A stretch of DNA of 63,899 nt, filler included, from Rhabdomonas costata (Eukaryota), in assembly GCA_019059605.1 (NCBI GenBank). It is 57 parts of 57 records of this genome, joined end to end, with 100 filler letters (N's around TTAATTAATTAA, not from the genome) between each part and the next. Parts side by side here need not be neighbours in the genome. Positions count along the whole stretch, not along the records: positions 50,532 to 51,554 come from JAHMHO010032960.1; 56 more parts are not named here. The stretch is one strand, 5' to 3'. The translations under genes were made by a program, and so were the position numbers. Each line of letters opens with the position of its first letter. Position 1 is the first letter of the stretch. Below the pieces are notes generated by a model. The model had not been told where the DNA came from, did not search any database, and saw nothing but the letters and a program-made list of their open reading frames with translations. This document shows, in pieces, positions 12,357 to 61,281 of the stretch.

Positions 12357-13256
12357 TTTGTGGGGGGTGTCACAAATGCTGTGGTCCACCTCCTTGATCA
12401 GCTTCTCAACTTCTTTTCTAGGCGAGTTACGCAACTTTCTGCGCGTCTTCCACTTGGGCTCTTGCGCTCTTGCTAACGCACGCTGATCTTCTGCAGTCGG
12501 CACAACCTCCTCTACTGTCTGCAAGTCTTCCGCAATAACTGCAAGCTCCTCTTGCAACACCGACTTATCCGTCACACTGGCTTCCGCATCACATTCTGCT
12601 CCCATCTTAGCGGAATGCTCCACTGCTAAGCTGAACGAGGGCGTTTCTTTTAACAGGGCGGGGGGCGTGTCTTTTCTTGTCGCTCCCTCCCCCCCTTGCT
12701 TGCCTTCTTCCTCTACCCCCTCCAACTCAGCATGCAACACTCCCGTCGTGGGGCACGTTATTCGAAACGAGTCCACTGCAGGAAGCGCCTGGATCTCGTA
12801 CACTTTCCCTTTTCGCCACACTTTTACAATCCTTCGCTTCCAGTCGACTTGCGGCTGAACCCGCGTTAAGAACGGGTAGCCCAATACAACCGGAATGGAC
12901 GTCTTAATCACTCGTAAGTACAACTTCACAGGCATTTCTCCCAATCTCCCTGTCACACGAACAAAGTGAGTAACAGGCAACCCCTCTCCATTCGCTACTC
13001 TCACTGTCAGCCTCTGTCGCAGTGGGTACGTCTGCAAATGCAACTGATGGACCACGTCCTGACTAATGAAAGAGTCAGACGCACCGGAGTCCACCAAAGC
13101 TCTCACCTGCCTCATCCCAATCACAAGAGGTAAGAACAACAAAGACTGCGGGGTGGTGGATCTGGGAGATTTTCCAAGAAACCGTCCCCCCCTTGCTCCG
13201 CTTTCTGGAAAGGAAGTACAAACAACGGCACCCAACCACTCACTTTCACATCTCAA
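12357..13256 (-). mobile_element. Ty3/Gypsy LTR retrotransposon aspartic protease and protease-RT linker
   Basis: VRALVDSGASDSFIS, VRVANG, VVLGYPFLTRVQPQVDWK: retropepsin signature; intronless 300-codon frame. Confidence 0.92.
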
Positions 13257-13480
13257 ATGCTCACGGGTTGGGTTCTCTCACCACGCTGAAAAGCTTCTTC
13301 GTCAACTTCCAAATGATCCGCTGGTCCCATGTCCCCAAAAGCACTCCATTTGCACTCCACGGGCTCACTGAACCGCACTTNNNNNNNNNNNNNNNNNNNN
13401 NNNNNNNNNNNNNNNNNNNNNNNNTTAATTAATTAANNNNNNNNNNNNNNNNNNNNNNNNNNNNNNNNNNNNNNNNNNNN

Positions 13481-13525
13481 CGCATCTTCGGCAGGTTCTT
13501 TCAGAAAGAACCTGCCGAAGATGCG
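13481..13525. repeat. Perfect 22-bp inverted repeat at contig start (probable fold-back artefact)
   Basis: cgcatcttcggcaggttctttc-a-gaaagaacctgccgaagatgcg. Confidence 0.9.
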
Positions 13526-15725
13526 AAAGTAAATGTCCAGACCAATTTCAATGCCTCCGGATCACTACTTTGTTTCTATTTTAATTTATTTATTTCAAGA
13601 AGAAGACCACCTGAGCATTCCAGAAGCAAAAACAGGTGTCCGCTTGTTGTACACGTCGGATTTTGTTTCATAATTTTGTGTGATCTGTTCATGAAATCCA
13701 GAAATGGATGAAAAACAACTTCAAAGACTTTGCACCTTGGCGCTGAGTACAGGTTTGTTTATACTTGTGGTGTGATCTGGAATTTTATTCTGTCAGCAGT
13801 GTACGTACTTAGGACCCTGGGAACTTTTTTCCTCCTCTAGGAATGTAAAACTCCGTGATCGATATTTTGATTCATTGTTGGGATGCGTGGAAAACTACCT
13901 CGCAGTGAAAATCCCTATCGTTGTAACGTTGTGAAAATTCCGAATTGATGTTGGGGTTGTTGGTGATGTGAATGGAGGCTTCTCCGCTCGGGTCGCTTTT
14001 TTCATATTTGGTGTCTCCAATACTGAGCTAGAAGGGCGAGAGTTCTCTCCGAGCACGCCCATGAAATTACAGCAAGAGTGCGGTTGCAGAGGATGGGGAA
14101 GTAGCGAGCGCGAGCTTCCCACCAGTCTGCTTTAATAAGGGACCCTAAGTCAGAGAAGAGACGCTCACCGCTAACCTATCGCATGCAAGATCAAATACCT
14201 TCTCTCTCTATCTCCAGGGTTGCATTAAACTTTGAACTGCATTGAACTGTTGAACACGTCACATCTAACTTTGAACTCTGAACTTCGATGCTGAATTTTG
14301 GGCTGATTTTCAATAGCATCCTTGAATTTCTTCTTGTGCGTTTTGCTACGCTCACGACATGGACCTTTGAACTTTGAACTGGTCACATTTTTCCAAAAAC
14401 AAGCGTCATCTCAGTGCAGCAAGCAGTCCGCACGAGGTCCGCACGGTTCCAAAGGCAGGAGATAGCAAAAACAAACCAGAACAAACCATACGACGACACC
14501 ACNNNNNNNNNNNNNNNNNNNNNNNNNNNNNNNNNNNNNNNNNNNNTTAATTAATTAANNNNNNNNNNNNNNNNNNNNNNNNNNNNNNNNNNNNNNNNNN
14601 NNTGTTTTGGTGGTCCGAGGTCCGGCTGAACATCGGCGACGGGGAAAGCAGAACGGCTCGCTGGATGCCCTCCCCTTACAAGGCCTACAACGATGGACGA
14701 CTTCGAAGTGGACGAGAGGGCTGGCAGTGGGGATGGGGATCTCAGAAGTGGCAGCCCTTCAGCATTCAATGAGACAACAGACACTCAGAACAGGAAGGAA
14801 TGCAAAGGGTCAATAGAAAGCAAATAAAACCTGAAAAAAAAGGAAAGCCGAGAGATAAAGAAAGCACATTCACGAGAAACATGAAGGAAACGAAAGGCTC
14901 GATTGAAAGCGAGTAAAAAACCCATAAAAAACAAGCAGGGGCACTGTGCCGGCGCTGGTGCGAAGGGGTCCCGAAACGAAAAGAACCGATTCCCTTCGCC
15001 ACAAGGTCAGACTGAGGACACTGTTTGCTAGGGTGCAGAGAAATAAAACCTGCAGAAGACCTTGGTGTGTGCAGTTTTGGACTTCGGCACCGCTCTGACA
15101 AAACAGAAAATAAAGGCTATGACTGTGAAGACTGCCTTGGGTGGGATTTCGGAGGAAGCGGAGATTACCGCTGCCTGCCCCTCAGCCCCACCCACCCGGG
15201 GCTTGCCATTGACCAAGGAAGACGAGGACCATCGTTCGGCAACAGTGCAATGCACTTCTTCCCCGCAGTTTGCGGCATCAGTAGGGCCTCACGTCTAAAG
15301 GATTTTTTTGCCCCAGTATTGGGCGCGGGGTGGGGAATGACACAGAGATTCTCTTCCCTGAAAGGATCACTCTGATTATTGAACTCCGTCTTCTTATGGA
15401 CCATTTGAATGAGAATTGTGGAAATCCAATGTCAAAACATGGGAAGCGGGCAGGGTATAAAGGGATGATCTCACTTCGTGTTTTTTATATTTTTTGACAC
15501 CGGTCCGAAATGCTCTCAATTAATGAACAGTTTTCCCTTTTGAAGTTAAGCGGGCGATATCGCACTGTCCCCGGAATTGATCCACCACCCGAGCCTGTCC
15601 ACCACGACTTCCCCTAACCAAACCCNNNNNNNNNNNNNNNNNNNNNNNNNNNNNNNNNNNNNNNNNNNNTTAATTAATTAANNNNNNNNNNNNNNNNNNN
15701 NNNNNNNNNNNNNNNNNNNNNNNNN

Positions 15726-16648
15726 CTGCACGAGTTCGTGCCCCATGGTATGAGGGAGGGTGGGGTGGGCATTCCCAATGCCTTAAGGAAGTGCGTGATT
15801 GTTTTTCAACTGGATTCAGCTGGAGTGAATAACCAGAATTTAGGTTGCATGCTGTCTTTTTTCGTGTTTGTTCACTGTGAATACGCGGCAGATGCTTCTG
15901 GTCCCGAGGCCCAGGAGATCGCCAAGGCGCTGGGGCTGCCTCTGGACAAGGTGGCGCACCGCATTCAGTCCCTGAAGGAGAGCAACCCCATGCTGGGCCA
16001 CCGAGGGTGCCGCCTGGGGATCACGTATCCCGAGATCTACGACATGCAAGTCCGTGCCATCTTCGAGGCGGCCTGCGAGGCATGCGTCCTCCTCTCCCTC
16101 GCTCTGCCCACCTCACCCTAGAGAGATAAGGCCAAGCCCAGAGTCGTATCACCCCACATCCGCGTTCATCCTTTTCCGCCATCCTTCAGTCTCAATCCTT
16201 TAGGTCAAGAAGGCAGGCAAGCCGTGCGCTCCTCCGGAGGTGATGATCCCTCTGGTGGGCAAGGTGGAGGAGTTCAACATCCTCAAGGAGAACTGCCACA
16301 AGGTTGCAGCAGCCGTGATGAAGGAGCAGAAGATGAAGTTCAAGTACATGGTGGGGACGATGATTGAGGTGTGTCCTTTCGGAGAACAAGCGTAAGCATG
16401 AAGTCTCGGCCTCTTGTTGTTTTCGTGGTTTGCAGGAGCCCAGTAACCATCTGAGCACGCACACGCCTTCAATGCCTTAGGTCCCCCGTGCGGCTGTGAC
16501 CGCGGACACCATTGCCAAGGAGGCCGAGTTCTTCTCCTTCGGTACCAACGACCTCACCCAGATGGGCTGCGGGTTCTCTCGGGATGATGCAGGCTCCTTC
16601 CTGGGGCAGTACGTCGAGCTGGGCATCTTTGACAAGGACCCCTTCCAG
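15726..16648 (+). CDS. PPDK: Pyruvate phosphate dikinase, C-terminal region (exons 15726-15747, 15892-16079, 16204-16368, 16481-16648)
   Basis: [70 protein letters not shown]; all exon phases are compatible; intron 2 is GC-AG. Confidence 0.97.
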
Positions 16649-18330
16649 GTTGCCTTGGCACTTGGGGGTGACGGGGACAGTGTAAGCCCACCCACGAGAC
16701 TCTTCCATCTACTCCCCAGCCCCCCCTCCGTCCCCACTCTCTTCTCACNNNNNNNNNNNNNNNNNNNNNNNNNNNNNNNNNNNNNNNNNNNNTTAATTAA
16801 TTAANNNNNNNNNNNNNNNNNNNNNNNNNNNNNNNNNNNNNNNNNNNNGGGTTTGGGGTAGACACCGGCAAAAAAGAATTGCTCCCTTTTTTGCCTGATA
16901 AACTGCTCTCTGGTACAGCAGGCGCGGTTTTTGGCATGTATGCCGGTATTTGTGATCGGGCAGGAGGAAATTACTGTTGGAATCGTATTTCTCCCATGTG
17001 GGATTGCAAATGGCAGTGCAACTCTATAGGCATTGAAGAGTGGGGCTCTAACCGAGCAAAAGAAGGCCAGAGGACAAAGCAGTACAGTGAGGATGAGAAT
17101 CTCTAAATGATCAGCGGGAAAAACCGGAAAAGGAAGGTGCGGGGGGAATGGGAGGGGAGGACACACTTGAATTTCTGCTGAGTTTTGGGCAGCGGCAACC
17201 CGCCAGCGCAGGTTTGTGGATCGGTTTTCTGATCCGGAGGAAGAGGAGGAAGAGGGGATGGGCAGGATGGGTGGCCACATCCTCGCCCAGATCCAGGCGG
17301 AATGGAATTCGACAGACAATGACAGAAGAATGACAGAAGAAGACTGCGCGATCAGCTGGATGGGGGGGAGAGGACATGATGATGGGACCCAGCGGCGGCT
17401 CACCGGGGGATTGGATCTGGAGCGCAGGCGAGAAGGCAGGCGAAAGGGTGGACGCCACTCGACTGCAACTTGTTGGTTTTTTCTCTGGAGAACGAACATT
17501 GGTGTTCAGGAAAATCTGGTTGGACCCCGGGAGGAACCGAGGCAACGAGGGAATGGAAAAGACAGAGCAAAAGCCCGCGGAGAAGAGAAGCCTAGGGCTT
17601 CGCAGCAATGCATCCCCATGCATTCTCCCAACCTCTCTCCAACCTCCCCAACCCTACCCCTTCCCAACACACACATACACACACACACATACACACCTAC
17701 CCACACAATTCTGGAACAAGAGTTCTCCCTCTCTCATCATAGCTACTCTCCTTCTCTCCCTTCTGACTCACCCCTCCCAACACCCACTGTTTTGGCCCAT
17801 CATACGGACGACGAACTCAACAGCCCTCCTCCAGCACCAACCTCCCTCCCCTGACCCGTAACCCCACCACCNNNNNNNNNNNNNNNNNNNNNNNNNNNNN
17901 NNNNNNNNNNNNNNNTTAATTAATTAANNNNNNNNNNNNNNNNNNNNNNNNNNNNNNNNNNNNNNNNNNNNACGCTAAAAAAATGGATGCATATTATTTT
18001 GGGTTCATATGTAAGATGTCACACGGATAACTAGCCGTTAAGATTTTTGCAGAAGACACCTTCTTTCGCTAAGGCAAGTGAAGATCTCACACATTTCCGC
18101 AGGGCAAAATGTTCGTGCGGATGCCTTATATACACACACAGTGGACAAGGCGAATCCAAGTTTTGCAGATATGTAGTGTTTGCTGAGTTTTGAGACGTTG
18201 AGGTTGGATAGAACGCTCTGTAAACCTGTAATGGTGTCAGAAGCAGGTGAATATGAGGATTAGTGGGCCGGCTACTCACTTAACCCAGTAGTGCGGAAGA
18301 GGTACTACAAAGTGGCACCATGGTAGAATT

Positions 18331-18994
18331 TTGGAGCTGGTGAAGATTGCGGTACCATTCCGTAGTTATTTGCGGTACCAAGATTCTCACGCAGCAGGGC
18401 ATTGTGCAGTGTACCTGACGGACGCACTGATCACGAGAACTTACGCATTCAAGAACATCAATGGAAAGGTGAGAGATTATGTGAGTTCCTGTGATTTGTA
18501 TAAGAGCTGCAAAGCGTACCAAAATTTACAAGGAGGACATAAACAGGTGTTTGAGGTGCCAGTGATGAAATGTGAATTAATTTCAATGGACTTTGTTTCC
18601 ATGCCACAGGGCCTTTGGACGTTTTCGGAAAAAGTGCAGGTTGTGAATAATGTGTTGACCTTTACACACCAGGCTGCAAAGATGGTTATGGCGATACAGC
18701 GCCATTACAAAATGAATTCACACGACATTGCAGAGTTGTTCTGGTGGGACACCATAAGTTTGTGTATTTCCGTAGAGATAGTGGACCTATCAGATGACAT
18801 CTCGATCAGAATATTATTGCTGTATTATCAGCAGAAAAACTTGAAGACAAAAGACCAACCATACCATGAATCATGTGGTGAACAAGCTGATGTATTTGCA
18901 TCCATGCACAACTGGGATGGAGTTTTTGGTCTTGGTGGAGTTGCAATCAACGGTGAGCCTATTGCCAATACAGACTACAGACAATTCTACCTGA
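18331..18994 (+). mobile_element. Degenerate Ty3/Gypsy integrase (zinc-binding region and start of core)
   Basis: QDSHAAGH..VRDYVSSCDLYKSCK..ISMDFVSMP..KMVMAI: decayed HHCC domain plus the first catalytic Asp. Confidence 0.8.
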
Positions 18995-19346
18995 NNNNNN
19001 NNNNNNNNNNNNNNNNNNNNNNNNNNNNNNNNNNNNNNTTAATTAATTAANNNNNNNNNNNNNNNNNNNNNNNNNNNNNNNNNNNNNNNNNNNNGGTTTT
19101 TGGGTCTCACATCCTTTCTATCTTCGGTTTCTGCTCTTGCTGCAAAATTCCACCGCAGGTTTCCTTCCATCCAACCTGTGATCACAGTTGGGGCAAAATG
19201 CAATGCAAGCGCTGATATCCAATCCGTGTGTTCTCTCTCCACAGAAAGAAACTCTTCTGCTTGCGACAGTGCCAGCGTAGGTGTACCTTGAGCGCAGGTA
19301 AGGGGGAATAAAGGGAAGATGTCACGGAGGGCAGGAAGCCATCCAC

Positions 19347-20054
19347 CTTCTTCCTCAATGACGCGAGAGTCCGCGGGCATCGAGCCCGGCGAGATGCCCC
19401 CGACATCCGAGTGGTGGCCGCGGCTGCCCACCCAGAACAGCACGGTCCGGCCCTCGAGGTCGAAGACTGGAGTGATCACCGTCATGTCCGGGAGGTGGGT
19501 CCCACCGTGATAGGGGCTGTTTAGCAGAAAGCTGTCTCCAGGCTGCAGCGTTCCTTAATTGGAAAAAAAAAGAGCATCGGAAATAAACCACGAGCACGAC
19601 GACCAGGGTAATAAAACTCTCACACCAATCTCGCTACTTTCATTCGCATCAGCGTCTTCCTTGCCACGATCGACAGTCCATCTTAGAGTCGTCCATTCCT
19701 TCATCCATTCAGCTCAGAATTCACTTGTGATTGGACTTCCCCCTTCCCCTCCATGTTCGAGCGACCCCCTGAGGCTGCAGTTTCCCCAGCTTTTTTTTTC
19801 CTGACACAACGCAAGAGAGAGAATATCTCGCCCAAATCACAACGTTCCTTGCAGTTCAAGGTGTTTTGTGTACCCTATGCATTGAGAAACTTTCGCCCTC
19901 GCACAGAATGGGTACCCAGGCTGTCCTGGATCACGACCTTCACGGACTCGCTCATGGAACCGAGGTGGACGGGCATGTGCGGGGCGTTGGCGACGAGCTC
20001 CCCAGCAGGCGTGAACAGCGCACATGAGAAGTCCAGCCTTTCCTTAATGTTGAC
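19347..20054 (-). CDS. OPLAH: 5-oxoprolinase (hydantoinase B domain), partial (exons 20054-19916, 19553-19347)
   Basis: [65 protein letters not shown] intron in compatible phase. Confidence 0.96.
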
Positions 20055-50531: not shown

Positions 50532-51554
50532 TTTAGCATCAGCATTGTTGATAAAATCATAAAATGCTCGTCCAACATCTCGGCAGTCTTTACCAAGTAC
50601 AGATGAATCAAAGCATAAACTATAATCAGGGTTTGGATATGTTTTATCAAGTTGGAATCTAATCATTTGAAGTTTAGTTGTAGCATCAGTTGTATTTTTT
50701 GCCTCAGTTGCAGCATTTGTAAAACCAGAGCTGAAGTCATTAGATGATTTTTTTACAGTTCCGGACCTACCTGTTTGTAAAAAGCAAGCTAAAAGATGTG
50801 TAACATTCCTTCCACCATTTGGTAAAGATAGACTAAAAGACTCATTATTCGATGAAATTGTATGTACTTGAGAAAAGTACTGTTTAAGATGTATTTCGTG
50901 AACCATATTTACAGGCGTTACGTCTGTAACGTAATAAAGCCACAGACTCACATCGCTCACACCTATTGCGACGGAATTTACAGTGGAATTTGATCCAGAT
51001 GATGATAAAGCAACTACTCCACCAGCTGGGAATGTCCCAGCTACAGATAAGATCTCATTTATCCAATTTGTATTTACGTTAAAATCAATTTCAACTTTAG
51101 TATGTGGAGGAATCCATTCATTACTTTGAAATAATGGGAACGGTAAAGACCAAGTTAAAGTCTGCTCTTGAAACGTATTTAATAGAAGCTGACATTTATT
51201 GGCATAAGCAGTACGTGGTGCACCACTGACAGCATCAGCTATTGATTGCGGAATAATAGGATTCGTCGACTCTATAGTTTCTTGCATGCTCTTTGTGTCA
51301 TAAATAGTGCGAAACAATGTGTTTGTGGCAGGTAATTCGTTCATATTGGATATCATCTTATCGTTCACTAATACTTTCCCAGTGGAAAAGAGTAGAGATA
51401 CAGGATTTTTTGAAAAGTAAGGAGTACCAACACCAGAAATATTCTGTAATGGTGTATGGACACCTGCTCCGTCTACTTGATCAACTCGAAGTTTTACAGC
51501 TAAAAAGCATTCTCTAGGCTTGCACCATTTATTCGTTGGTGTTTTAAATGTGAA
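50532..51554 (-). CDS. Polinton/Polinton-like virus major capsid protein (double jelly-roll), partial
   Basis: Frame open over all 341 codons of the contig, AT-rich, intronless. FTFKT..ECFLAVKLRV..NPVSLLFSTGKVLVNDKMISN..LFQSNEWIPPHTKVEIDFNVN..DVSLWL..KTYPNPDYSLCF..GRAFYDF is collinear with the Polinton MCP pattern. Confidence 0.75.
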
Positions 51555-60630: not shown

Positions 60631-61281
60631 GGTGGTGTTGATCAGTCCCTCACGGATGAACTGAAGCAGCTTTTCCGGGAGATGGAAGCCGCTGCAAAGA
60701 GTGGCTTCGAGGGCTCTGCGGTGGAAGGCGCCAGTCCGGGTCCAGATGAGCAAAAGCTTCTGCAGAACGCCCAGATCTCCGTGATGAATCAGATCGGGGA
60801 GCTTACCAAGGCCTTTCAGCAGGAGCAGCGCAAATACCTTGCCGAGATCACACGGCAGCGTGGGCGAGCCAAGAGGCTCGTTAGCCTGGGCACCTCCTCC
60901 GGGGACCCAGAGGAAGAGCAGCGAGAAAAACTGATGGCCAGATACCTGGAGAAGGGGTTCACTGCGGAACAAATCGAGGCTCTGACCTTTCATGAGGAAC
61001 TGATCAACTCCCGGGACGCCGAGCTCAGCCGGATCTACCAAAGCATTGTCGACCTCCACGAGATCTTTAAGGACATGAACGCGCTGGTGATCGACCAGGG
61101 CACGCTTTTGGACCGGATTGACTACAATGTGGAGGAGACTCGGACTCGGATCCTGAGCGCCAACCGGGAGATCAAGAAGACCGTTGAGTACTCCGAGAAG
61201 AACGTGTTCCTGAAGCTCGTGGTTGTTTTGACGATGCTGATTCTGTTGATGATCGGGCTGCTGATATTGAAGAAGATATGA
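60631..61281 (+). CDS. STX16: Syntaxin-16/Tlg2-type Qa-SNARE, C-terminal part
   Basis: FQQEQRKYL; SNARE motif RDAELSRIYQSIVDLHEIFKDMNALVIDQGTLLDRIDYNVE; C-terminal TM and stop. Confidence 0.92.
   Translation, partial: GGVDQSLTDELKQLFREMEAAAKSGFEGSAVEGASPGPDEQKLLQNAQISVMNQIGELTKAFQQEQRKYLAEITRQRGRAKRLVSLGTSSGDPEEEQREKLMARYLEKGFTAEQIEALTFHEELINSRDAELSRIYQSIVDLHEIFKDMNALVIDQGTLLDRIDYNVEETRTRILSANREIKKTVEYSEKNVFLKLVVVLTMLILLMIGLLILKKI

What the first reader, a model, noticed from the sequence alone, without database searches (positions are those of the whole stretch)
50532..51554. Intact Polinton-like virus major capsid gene
Seen: the frame extends 62 codons upstream of the listed ORF and is stop-free over the whole contig. 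It is AT-rich and intronless, unlike host genes, and beta-strand rich. Motif order matches my recollection of Polinton MCPs (xxYLxVKxKI; NNxxxSLFSxxxVxLNxxxIS; LFxQxxxLPPxxxxxIxL; YPxxPY..RAYxxL). Inference: a divergent endogenous or co-amplified Polinton/PLV, recent or active given no decay, in a host group where such viruses are little described. Integration cannot be shown from this contig.
Basis: partly seen in the sequence, partly recalled or inferred. Interest (0 to 1): 0.75.

Follow-up and report, generated by a model that had tools for sequence, protein, structure and literature searches.

The report
Polinton-type virus capsid gene fragment
A one-kilobase contig in a fragmented protist assembly carries about three quarters of the major capsid gene of a small Polinton-type DNA virus, a known kind of virus; whether it sits in the host genome or was merely sequenced along with it cannot be told.

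Summary
The window is 57 unrelated ~1 kb contigs joined by artificial spacers. Contig 50532-51554 is open on the minus strand over all 341 codons (0 of 2000 shuffles reach this). It is AT-rich: GC 0.36 against 0.52 for the other contigs, and GC3 0.24 against 0.75-0.79 in host exons.

It has no start and no stop. It matches residues 28-365 of 435-552-residue relatives, so it is a fragment, not an intact gene.

No Pfam, PHROG or PDB sequence match exists. An AlphaFold model of a 74%-identical full-length relative (pLDDT 89.9) is a double jelly-roll capsid protein (Z 23.7 PBCV-1, 20.7 Sputnik, 19.6 mavirus).

A relative of the same well-supported clade lies on a 19 kb AT-rich metagenome contig. 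That contig also carries an rve integrase, a protein-primed polymerase B, an adenain-like protease, a phospholipase A2-like protein and a probable packaging ATPase. This is a Polinton gene set, resembling the published Gossevirus and VC35 groups.

"Intact", "endogenous" and "recent or active" are not shown. The surrounding contigs look euglenid-like. No Polinton or Polinton-like virus report for euglenids turned up, but nothing links this contig to that host.

The parts
50532..51554 (-). Fragment of a double jelly-roll major capsid protein gene. It has 341 codons, is open from one contig end to the other, and has no start and no stop. It corresponds to residues 28-365 of a 448-residue homologue.
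   Evidence: Translation; stop counts and shuffles; homologues; alignment; fold of the homologue.
50925..51554 (-). Approximate: the part encoding most of the first jelly roll (window residues about 1-210). The first N-terminal strand is missing because the contig ends.
   Evidence: Strand map of model mddf172977fd6, transferred through the alignment. The boundary is approximate and inferred.
50532..50924 (-). Approximate: the part encoding the first half of the second jelly roll (window residues about 211-341). The last four predicted strands (homologue residues 383-447) lie beyond the contig end.
   Evidence: The boundary is approximate and inferred.

Best explanation
The contig carries about three quarters of the major capsid protein (MCP) gene of a small eukaryotic dsDNA virus of the Polinton / Polinton-like virus supergroup. 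The protein is a vertical double jelly-roll MCP. By analogy with solved relatives, it should form trimeric pseudo-hexagonal capsomers that tile an icosahedral shell. This is inferred and not tested. The rest of the virus is inferred from a 19-kb metagenome contig (L005) that carries an MCP of the same clade, 67-70% identical over the two tblastn segments. On that contig, DNA would be replicated by a protein-primed polymerase B, inserted into host DNA by an rve integrase, packaged by an A32/FtsK-type ATPase, and the capsid matured by an adenain-like cysteine protease. A phospholipase A2-like protein probably helps entry. Shown: the open frame, the family, the fold, and the gene set of the relative. 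Inferred: that the window's virus has the same gene set, and that the gene is functional. Not resolved: whether the copy is integrated in the euglenid-like host genome, belongs to a virus replicating in that host, or comes from another organism or virus particle in the sequenced material.
For: Open frame: 0 stops in 341 codons, and 0 of 2000 shuffles reach this. Family: 49 proteins with E <= 0.01 among 1794 candidates, the best 71% identical over 100% of the query; 105 clusters at E <= 1e-3 in 1.84 billion representatives. Fold: the AF2 model of P0002 has pLDDT 89.9 and pTM 0.90. Foldseek PDB top hits are iridovirus, PBCV-1 and Sputnik MCPs at E 1e-16 to 5e-15. BFVD top hits are virophage, NCLDV, adintovirus and adomavirus capsid proteins. 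In VIA-align against 48,161 chains, ranks 1-15 are capsid or poxvirus scaffold proteins at Z 23.7-11.6, and nothing below rank 16 (Z 8.4, another phage capsid chain) exceeds Z 7.5. Context in L005: rve at Pfam E 2e-12, PLA2-like at 2e-8, papain C1 at 7e-8, HNH at 2e-13. The polymerase shows the protein-primed PolB motif set in its translation, and its nearest Atlas clusters carry PF03175 at score 0.97. The nearest Atlas clusters of the protease carry Peptidase_C5 at score 0.97. The ATPase has Walker A and B motifs plus a PHROG terminase hit at 9e-4. The tree places the window protein and L005's MCP in one clade of 18 with support 100/99. The same gene order (basic protein, MCP, small basic protein, protease) recurs in L001, L002 and L003. 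Purifying selection: pN 0.19-0.22 against pS 0.70-0.83.
Against: No sequence-level match to any annotated capsid family: Pfam 0 hits at E <= 1 for the fragment, and no capsid family among 50 family members; PDB sequence and profile searches gave only noise. Assignment to the capsid superfamily therefore rests on a predicted structure of a homologue, not of the window's own fragment. The window holds no other viral gene: of 19 L005 proteins searched by tblastn, only the MCP hits, and the other rows have E >= 0.10. L005 is 67-70% identical in its MCP, and gene content in these viruses is known to be plastic (PMC7805220, passages read), so the window's virus may differ. The minor capsid (penton) protein was not identified, because the single-sequence AF2 model of the candidate failed at pLDDT 32. 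No terminal inverted repeats were found in L005. No relatives were found in IMG/VR by two pattern-based scans, and none in the phage collection.
Confidence: 0.85

Rival explanations
1. Provenance reading A. The gene is part of an element integrated in the euglenid-like host genome, and the integration is recent or the element is still active.
For: The frame is undecayed over 341 codons. The related L005 encodes an rve integrase. Integrated Polinton-like viruses are common in protist genomes and tend to sit in poorly assembled regions (PMC10120064, passages read). The host contigs are equally short, so a 1-kb contig is not in itself a sign of foreign DNA.
Against: The contig is coding from end to end, so there is no host flank and no junction. 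GC3 of 0.24 against 0.75-0.79 in two host exons shows no adaptation to the host. There is no second viral contig among the 57. Read depth and mate pairs could not be examined.
Confidence: 0.4
2. Provenance reading B. The contig comes from virus particles or from another eukaryote (prey, contaminant or co-cultured protist, or its integrated virus) present in the sequenced material. It says nothing about the euglenid-like host.
For: Composition is extreme relative to the other contigs (z = -3.5) and GC3 is 0.24. Composition matches the environmental relatives, whose MCP regions have GC 0.34-0.42. All relatives come from metagenome-type sources. The published groups with the most similar gene content are linked to stramenopile hosts or have no known host (PMC7805220 passages; preprint 10.64898/2026.06.19.733378, section 5).
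Against: Integrated viruses of this supergroup usually keep their own low GC, so composition does not discriminate (general knowledge of the field, not tested here). No contig in the window was shown to come from a second eukaryote. One other AT-rich contig (2246-3269) was not identified.
Confidence: 0.45
3. The gene belongs to a virophage in the biological sense: a mavirus-like element that depends on a giant virus. Mavirus has the same core gene set and almost the same genome size as L005.
For: Sputnik and mavirus MCPs are strong structural matches at Z 20.7 and 19.6, and virophage MCPs rank 2 and 9 in BFVD. L005 has pPolB, rve, a protease and an ATPase, is 19 kb long and has about 30% GC. 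Giant-virus insertions are reported for Euglena gracilis (PMC12455990, abstract and passages read).
Against: NCLDV MCPs score as high or higher (Z 23.7-21.1), so the fold does not single out virophages. There is no sequence-level link to any named virophage protein. Dependence on a giant virus cannot be read from sequence.
Confidence: 0.15
4. The gene is the MCP of a giant virus (Nucleocytoviricota), or of a giant endogenous viral element such as those reported in Euglena.
For: The best structural matches are NCLDV MCPs. Giant endogenous viral elements exist in Euglena gracilis (PMC12455990).
Against: No match to the NCLDV capsid Pfam families at E <= 1 for the fragment, none for 7 full-length relatives, and none at E <= 0.01 among 50 members. 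The relative sits on a 19-kb contig with a Polinton gene set, and the protease-linked gene order recurs in three more loci.
Confidence: 0.03

Closest known systems
Gossevirus group of Polinton-like viruses, related to Polintoviricetes (Bellas & Sommaruga 2021, PMC7805220; 2026 preprint 10.64898/2026.06.19.733378; passages and section 5 read)
   Same: Small AT-rich aquatic dsDNA viruses with a double jelly-roll MCP that has no BLASTP-level link to virophage MCPs. A cysteine protease is a core gene, about half encode a phospholipase, and some members have pPolB plus rve. L005 shows all of these.
   Different: Membership is defined by the MCP cluster or HMM (PC_0014 / GKS1). All published host links are to stramenopiles. 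None of the 49 homologues found here comes from an EukProt, MMETSP or UniRef source, although Gossevirus MCPs are reported from oomycete genomes and chrysophyte transcriptomes. This is a weak hint that the family is a different group.
VC35 cluster (same 2026 preprint, section 5 read)
   Same: Related to Maverick-Polintons, with cysteine protease and phospholipase in about half of members. Known only from lake viromes, with no endogenous copies and no known host. This matches the all-metagenome distribution of the family here.
   Different: No sequence or profile of VC35 was available, so this is a resemblance in description only.
Maverick/Polinton elements and adintoviruses of animals (Polintoviricetes)
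   Same: The gene set of L005: pPolB, rve integrase, adenain-like protease, packaging ATPase and a double jelly-roll MCP. The nearest Atlas clusters of the polymerase are eukaryotic, commonly arthropod, and carry PF03175 plus Endonuclease_7. An adintovirus capsid protein ranks 7 in BFVD.
   Different: No sequence-level MCP similarity was demonstrated. No terminal inverted repeats were found in L005. The relatives come from environmental metagenomes, not animal genomes.
Mavirus-type virophages
   Same: About 19 kb and about 30% GC, with pPolB, rve, a protease, an ATPase and a double jelly-roll MCP. The mavirus MCP scores Z 19.6.
   Different: The MCP here is shorter (435-552 residues), and the link is at fold level only. 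L005 also has PLA2-like, papain-like and HNH genes and a 1245-residue repeat protein. Dependence on a giant virus is unknown.
NCLDV major capsid proteins (PBCV-1 Vp54, iridovirus MCP)
   Same: Best structural matches: Z 23.7, and Foldseek E 1e-16.
   Different: Only 9-11% identity, no Pfam NCLDV capsid match, and a small-virus gene neighbourhood.

Membership tests
Double jelly-roll major capsid proteins (kingdom Bamfordvirae) | Two consecutive eight-stranded jelly rolls in one chain, superposable on solved MCPs | tested here: met
   The model of the 74%-identical homologue P0002 has pLDDT 89.9. VIA-align gives Z 23.7-11.6 over 242-363 aligned residues to 15 capsid or scaffold entries. Foldseek gives E down to 1.3e-16. 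The test used the homologue; the window fragment itself lacks the first strand and the last four strands.
Double jelly-roll major capsid proteins (kingdom Bamfordvirae) | Assembly into trimeric pseudo-hexagonal capsomers | not tested
   Three copies of 448 residues exceed the 1000-residue limit of complex prediction, so no job was sent.
Complete ('intact') gene | Start codon and stop codon of the family's full-length form present | tested here: not met
   The contig covers residues 28-365 of 448. Full-length relatives are 435-552 residues. The GTG at 51368 lies inside the conserved region, so it is not a start.
Endogenous (integrated) element | Junction with host DNA, or host-like read depth | tested here: not met
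   The contig is coding from end to end and bounded by artificial spacers. This shows absence of evidence only.
Polinton/Maverick configuration (Polintoviricetes) | Protein-primed family B DNA polymerase | tested here: inconclusive
   Absent from the window. In relative L005 (13265-17395), the exonuclease and polymerase motif set is readable in the translation (motif names are recalled), and the nearest Atlas clusters carry PF03175 on 19-47% of members at score 0.95-0.97. Direct Pfam, PHROG and PDB searches found only an Endonuclease VII-like insert.
Polinton/Maverick configuration (Polintoviricetes) | rve-family integrase | tested here: met
   Met in relative L005 only: PF00665 at E 2e-12 and 47.7 bits against a cutoff of 32.6. 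Not present in the window.
Polinton/Maverick configuration (Polintoviricetes) | Adenain-like (Peptidase C5) maturation protease | tested here: inconclusive
   L005 9684-10133: the nearest Atlas clusters carry PF00770 on 11-62% of members at score 0.95-0.97. The His...Asp...Gln...Cys order is visible and conserved in L002 and L003. Pfam gives no direct hit.
Polinton/Maverick configuration (Polintoviricetes) | A32/FtsK-type packaging ATPase | tested here: inconclusive
   L005 5862-6533(-): Walker A and B motifs are readable. PHROG terminase large subunit hit at E 8.9e-4 over residues 133-203 only. No Pfam hit.
Polinton/Maverick configuration (Polintoviricetes) | Minor capsid (penton) protein | tested here: inconclusive
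   Candidate L005 3938-4732: no family hit, and the single-sequence AF2 model is unusable at pLDDT 32.2.
Polinton/Maverick configuration (Polintoviricetes) | Terminal inverted repeats | tested here: not met
   No terminal inverted repeat of 30 nt or more in L005. An ORF runs off one end, so the contig is probably incomplete and this result is weak.
Gossevirus group / VC35 (published PLV groups) | MCP detected by the group's HMM (GKS1) or MCP cluster | not testable with these tools
Gossevirus group / VC35 (published PLV groups) | [quoted passage not shown] | tested here: met
   Met in relative L005: PLA2-like PF08398 at E 2.1e-8 and the protease as described above. The criterion is taken from section 5 of the preprint.
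Nucleocytoviricota MCP | Match to the NCLDV capsid Pfam families | tested here: not met
   0 hits at E <= 1 for the fragment and for 7 full-length relatives. 0 of 50 members hit at E <= 0.01.
Virophages (Maveriviricetes) | Replication dependent on a giant virus; MCP of the virophage sequence cluster | not testable with these tools
   Only fold-level similarity: Sputnik Z 20.7 and mavirus Z 19.6, no higher than the NCLDV MCPs.

The most novel reading that the evidence does not exclude
The contig is a genuine resident, integrated or persistently replicating, of a euglenid-like protist. That would make it the first Polinton-type virus tied to Euglenida. It would also give a first host lead for a Polintoviricetes-related capsid lineage otherwise seen here only in metagenome-derived records with no eukaryote label (possibly the orphan VC35-like group).
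Probability: 0.2. Interest if true: 0.6.

Novelty: new member of a known kind. Interest (0 to 1): 0.4.

Why it matters
Polinton-type viruses are thought to be ancestral to many eukaryotic dsDNA viruses, and they can act as defences against giant viruses. Their host range among protists is still being mapped. Two literature searches here ('Euglena' + 'Polinton': 9 papers, 5 listed; 'Euglenozoa' + 'Polinton-like': 5 papers, 2 listed) turned up no report of such an element in euglenids. Giant-virus insertions are reported in Euglena gracilis (PMC12455990). A confirmed host link would therefore fill a gap. As it stands, the finding is one more divergent capsid gene fragment of a known virus kind, of uncertain provenance.

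Tried and rejected
- Pfam, PHROG and PDB sequence searches with the fragment gave nothing usable. The same was true for full-length relatives and a 50-sequence profile. Only noise appeared: YafQ at E 1.1, AcMNPV_P18 in 1 of 50 members, and Phage_fiber_2 and Serpentine receptor at E > 0.03.
- IMG/VR scans with one protein and with alignment A1 matched 5 and 78 pattern stretches, and none was confirmed. Alignment A2 was too divergent for the tool (error).
- tblastn against the phage collection found no match.
Assembly-wide gene searches, depth and mate-pair tests were therefore impossible.
- The first host identification attempt used a 5-oxoprolinase exon. It returned only 67-79% identical, mostly bacterial-labelled proteins and was uninformative.
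- The single-sequence AF2 model of the putative penton of L005 had pLDDT 32.2 and was not searched further.
- The inverted-repeat search in L005 found no terminal repeats.
- Earlier findings of this scan had nothing by place, sequence or words.
- Cluster look-up gave no organism names that would reveal a host.
- dN/dS could not be given as a ratio with confidence, because synonymous sites are saturated (pS 0.70-0.83). Only the contrast between pN and pS is used.
- The giant-virus capsid reading was considered and rejected on the missing Pfam match and the small-virus neighbourhood.
- A cellular jelly-roll protein was considered and rejected, because all strong structural matches are capsid or scaffold proteins.

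Full report
**What the window is.** The 63,899 bases are not one locus. They are 57 contigs of 1015-1026 bp joined by artificial spacers of N44 + TTAATTAATTAA + N44. The finding's coordinates, 50532-51554, are exactly one such contig of 1023 bp. Its neighbours in the window are therefore not its genomic neighbours.

**The observation.**
- On the minus strand the contig has 0 stops in 341 codons. The other five frames have 14-35 stops.
- 0 of 2000 shuffles of the contig give an open stretch of 341 codons in any frame (maximum 183). The composition-based probability is about 4e-11.
- It is the only one of the 57 contigs that is open from end to end; the next longest open frame is 307 codons.
- GC is 0.364, against 0.518 +/- 0.044 for the other 56 contigs (z = -3.5). 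One other contig, 2246-3269, has GC 0.357.
- GC at the three codon positions is 0.43, 0.42 and 0.24. Two recognisable host exons have GC3 of 0.75 and 0.79.
The gene is not shown to be intact, because the contig has neither the start nor the stop.

**The family.**
- The fragment (P0001) matches no Pfam family at E <= 1, only a meaningless PHROG at E 0.14, and no PDB chain at E <= 10.
- It is not an orphan. A word-indexed search found 49 proteins at E <= 0.01 among 1794 candidates; the best is 71% identical over the whole fragment.
- The exhaustive HMMER search of 1.84 billion cluster representatives found 105 clusters at E <= 1e-3, 44 at <= 1e-10 and 11 at <= 1e-30.
- Full-length members are 435-552 residues long. 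A long form carries an insertion of about 110 residues after the conserved IPQS stretch. The window's protein is of the short form.
- The fragment aligns to residues 28-365 of the 448-residue P0002, with 73.7% identity over 334 columns. It therefore lacks 27 N-terminal and 83 C-terminal residues.
- All sources are metagenome-type collections. Only 2 of the 49 rows carry a name: 'hypothetical protein' and a MAG label of an alphaproteobacterium, presumably mis-binned.

**The fold.**
- An AlphaFold2 model of P0002, built with a 50-sequence alignment that includes the window's fragment, has mean pLDDT 89.9 and pTM 0.90 and is almost all beta.
- Foldseek against the PDB gives iridovirus, PBCV-1 and Sputnik major capsid proteins at E 1.3e-16 to 5e-15, then poxvirus D13 and mavirus MCP at about 1e-12.
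- Foldseek against BFVD gives virophage, giant-virus, adintovirus, adomavirus and MELD-virus capsid proteins.
- The Foldseek-independent VIA-align search of 48,161 chains gives Z 23.7 (PBCV-1), 22.4 (faustovirus), 21.1 (ASFV p72), 20.7 (Sputnik), 19.6 (mavirus), 15.6 (PRD1 P3), 14.0 (STIV) and 11.7 (adenovirus hexon). Rank 16 is another phage capsid chain at Z 8.4, and unrelated jelly-roll proteins follow at Z 7.5 or less.
The protein is a double jelly-roll major capsid protein.
- The fold does not say which branch it belongs to. Giant-virus and virophage proteins score alike, at 9-14% identity.

**The kind of virus.**
- Nineteen metagenome loci encode relatives. One of them, L005, is a 19,042-bp contig with about 30% GC and dense coding.
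- L005's MCP and the window's protein fall in one clade of 18 sequences with support 100/99. The window's protein is on its own branch of length 0.25.
- L005 carries the following genes.

| Gene in L005 | Coordinates | Evidence |
|---|---|---|
| rve integrase | 17396-18415 | Pfam E 2e-12 |
| Protein-primed family B polymerase, 1376 residues | 13265-17395 | Exonuclease and polymerase motifs readable in the translation (motif names recalled); nearest ESM-Atlas clusters are eukaryotic and carry PF03175 on 19-47% of members, score 0.95-0.97. Direct Pfam, PHROG and PDB searches saw only an Endonuclease VII-like insert |
| Adenain-like protease, 149 residues | 9684-10133 | His/Asp/Gln/Cys order visible; nearest Atlas clusters carry Peptidase_C5, score 0.95-0.97 |
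| Probable packaging ATPase | 5862-6533(-) | Walker A and B motifs; PHROG terminase hit at E 9e-4 |
| Phospholipase A2-like protein | 4754-5479 | Pfam E 2e-8 |
| Papain-family protease | 10379-11125 | Pfam E 7e-8 |
| HNH endonuclease | 12273-12869 | |
| Repeat-rich fibre-like protein, 1245 residues | 153-3890(-) | |

- The order basic protein, MCP, small basic protein, protease recurs in L001, L002 and L003. L001 carries a short-form MCP like the window's.
- This is a Polinton gene configuration rather than the typical configuration of Polinton-like viruses.
- The penton protein was not identified: the single-sequence AF2 model of the candidate had pLDDT 32. No terminal inverted repeats were found in L005, which is probably incomplete.

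**Comparison with the literature.**
- Bellas and Sommaruga (PMC7805220, passages read) described lake PLV groups with highly divergent MCPs. Some have pPolB plus rve. Their Gossevirus group has a cysteine protease and a phospholipase, and all its host links are to stramenopiles.
- Their 2026 preprint (10.64898/2026.06.19.733378; abstract, section 5 and passages read) places Gosseviruses, and a further cluster VC35 with no known host, next to Maverick-Polintons.
- L005 fits these descriptions by gene content. Membership is defined by MCP profiles held in supplements I could not open, so it is untested.
- None of the 49 homologues comes from a eukaryote proteome or transcriptome source. This fits an orphan group better than the Gossevirus group, but the hint is weak.

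**Selection and state of the gene.** Against four relatives, the proportion of non-synonymous differences is 0.19-0.22 and of synonymous differences 0.70-0.83, which is saturated. The lineage has evolved under strong purifying selection, and the fragment shows no decay. This does not date an insertion or show activity.

**Host and provenance.**
- The other contigs are eukaryotic. They hold exon-like pieces flanked by stops, an ABC transporter piece, fragments of an LTR-retrotransposon protease and integrase, and a SNARE ORF.
- The SNARE ORF is syntaxin-16-like. Its best matches are 48-56% identical. The only named ones among the top ten are Eutreptiella gymnastica, a euglenid, at 53% and 50%. 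Fungal proteins follow at 34% or less. The assembly therefore appears to be of a euglenid-like protist that is not itself in the protein database.
- Nothing links the capsid contig to that organism. There is no flank and no second viral contig: of 19 L005 proteins searched against the window, only the MCP hits. No genome is held and no reads were offered.
- Integrated copy, resident virus, and contaminant or prey-derived DNA all remain open. I put them at roughly 0.4 to 0.45 for host-associated and 0.45 for foreign.
- Two literature searches found no Polinton or PLV report in euglenids. A large protist screen has no occurrence of 'euglen' in its main text; its supplements were not seen (PMC10120064).

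**Verdict.** The feature is real and correctly recognised as the major capsid gene of a virus of the Polinton/PLV supergroup. It is a fragment, not an intact gene. It is a new member of a known kind. Interest is moderate and rests on the unproven possibility of a euglenid host.

Noticed in passing
window 1-63899: The window is a concatenation of 57 unrelated contigs of 1015-1026 bp, separated by N44 + TTAATTAATTAA + N44 spacers. Adjacency within the window has no biological meaning.
   Followed up: yes
window 60631-61278 (+): Syntaxin-16-like SNARE ORF of 216 codons with a C-terminal membrane anchor. Its best matches are 48-56% identical, and the named ones are from the euglenid Eutreptiella gymnastica. 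This suggests the assembly is of a euglenid-like protist absent from the protein database.
   Followed up: partly
window 12357-13277 (-) and 18292-18993 (+): Fragments of LTR-retrotransposon genes on two separate contigs: a retroviral-type aspartyl protease (Pfam E 5e-9) and an integrase H2C2 zinc-binding domain (E 5e-6).
   Followed up: no
window 19345-19554 (-): A 70-codon exon-like piece of 5-oxoprolinase (hydantoinase B) with GC3 0.79. Among the 120 hits listed it is 67-79% identical, and the named ones are bacterial, mainly Burkholderiales. No closer eukaryotic match was listed. This could reflect high conservation, bacterial ancestry of the gene, or a bacterial contig, but stops flank the exon.
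   Followed up: partly
window 2246-3269: A second strongly AT-rich contig (GC 0.357) with no open frame longer than 64 codons. Its origin was not determined, and it shows no similarity to the L005 proteins.
   Followed up: no
L005 4754-5479 and 10379-11125: The related 19-kb virus contig encodes a parvovirus-type phospholipase A2-like domain protein. It also encodes a papain-family (C1) protease in addition to the adenain-like protease, so it has two unrelated cysteine proteases. The papain-like gene is also present in L003.
   Followed up: partly
L005 13265-17395: The polymerase is 1376 residues long. It has a long N-terminal coiled, basic extension and an Endonuclease VII-like zinc module (residues about 624-664) inserted before the exonuclease domain. 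The nearest Atlas clusters share this Endonuclease_7 + DNA_pol_B_2 combination.
   Followed up: partly
L005 153-3890 (-): A 1245-residue Ser/Thr/Asn-rich protein with many copies of a motif of about 35 residues. It matches five PHROG families of unknown function (best E 2.4e-20). It is probably a fibre or spike.
   Followed up: no
L001 1710-1937, L002 2262-2501, L003 2732-2947, L005 9356-9607: A conserved small protein of 71-83 residues begins MSTVIG and has a very basic tail. It always lies directly downstream of the MCP and may be a core or DNA-condensing protein. Upstream of the MCP lies a 282-328-residue charged protein with a conserved basic C-terminus.
   Followed up: no
alignment A1, columns about 150-260: The MCP family has a short form (435-458 residues, as in the window) and a long form (534-552 residues). 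The long form has an insertion of about 110 residues in a loop of the first jelly roll, likely a surface tower or decoration domain. The two forms are interleaved in the tree, not cleanly separated.
   Followed up: partly
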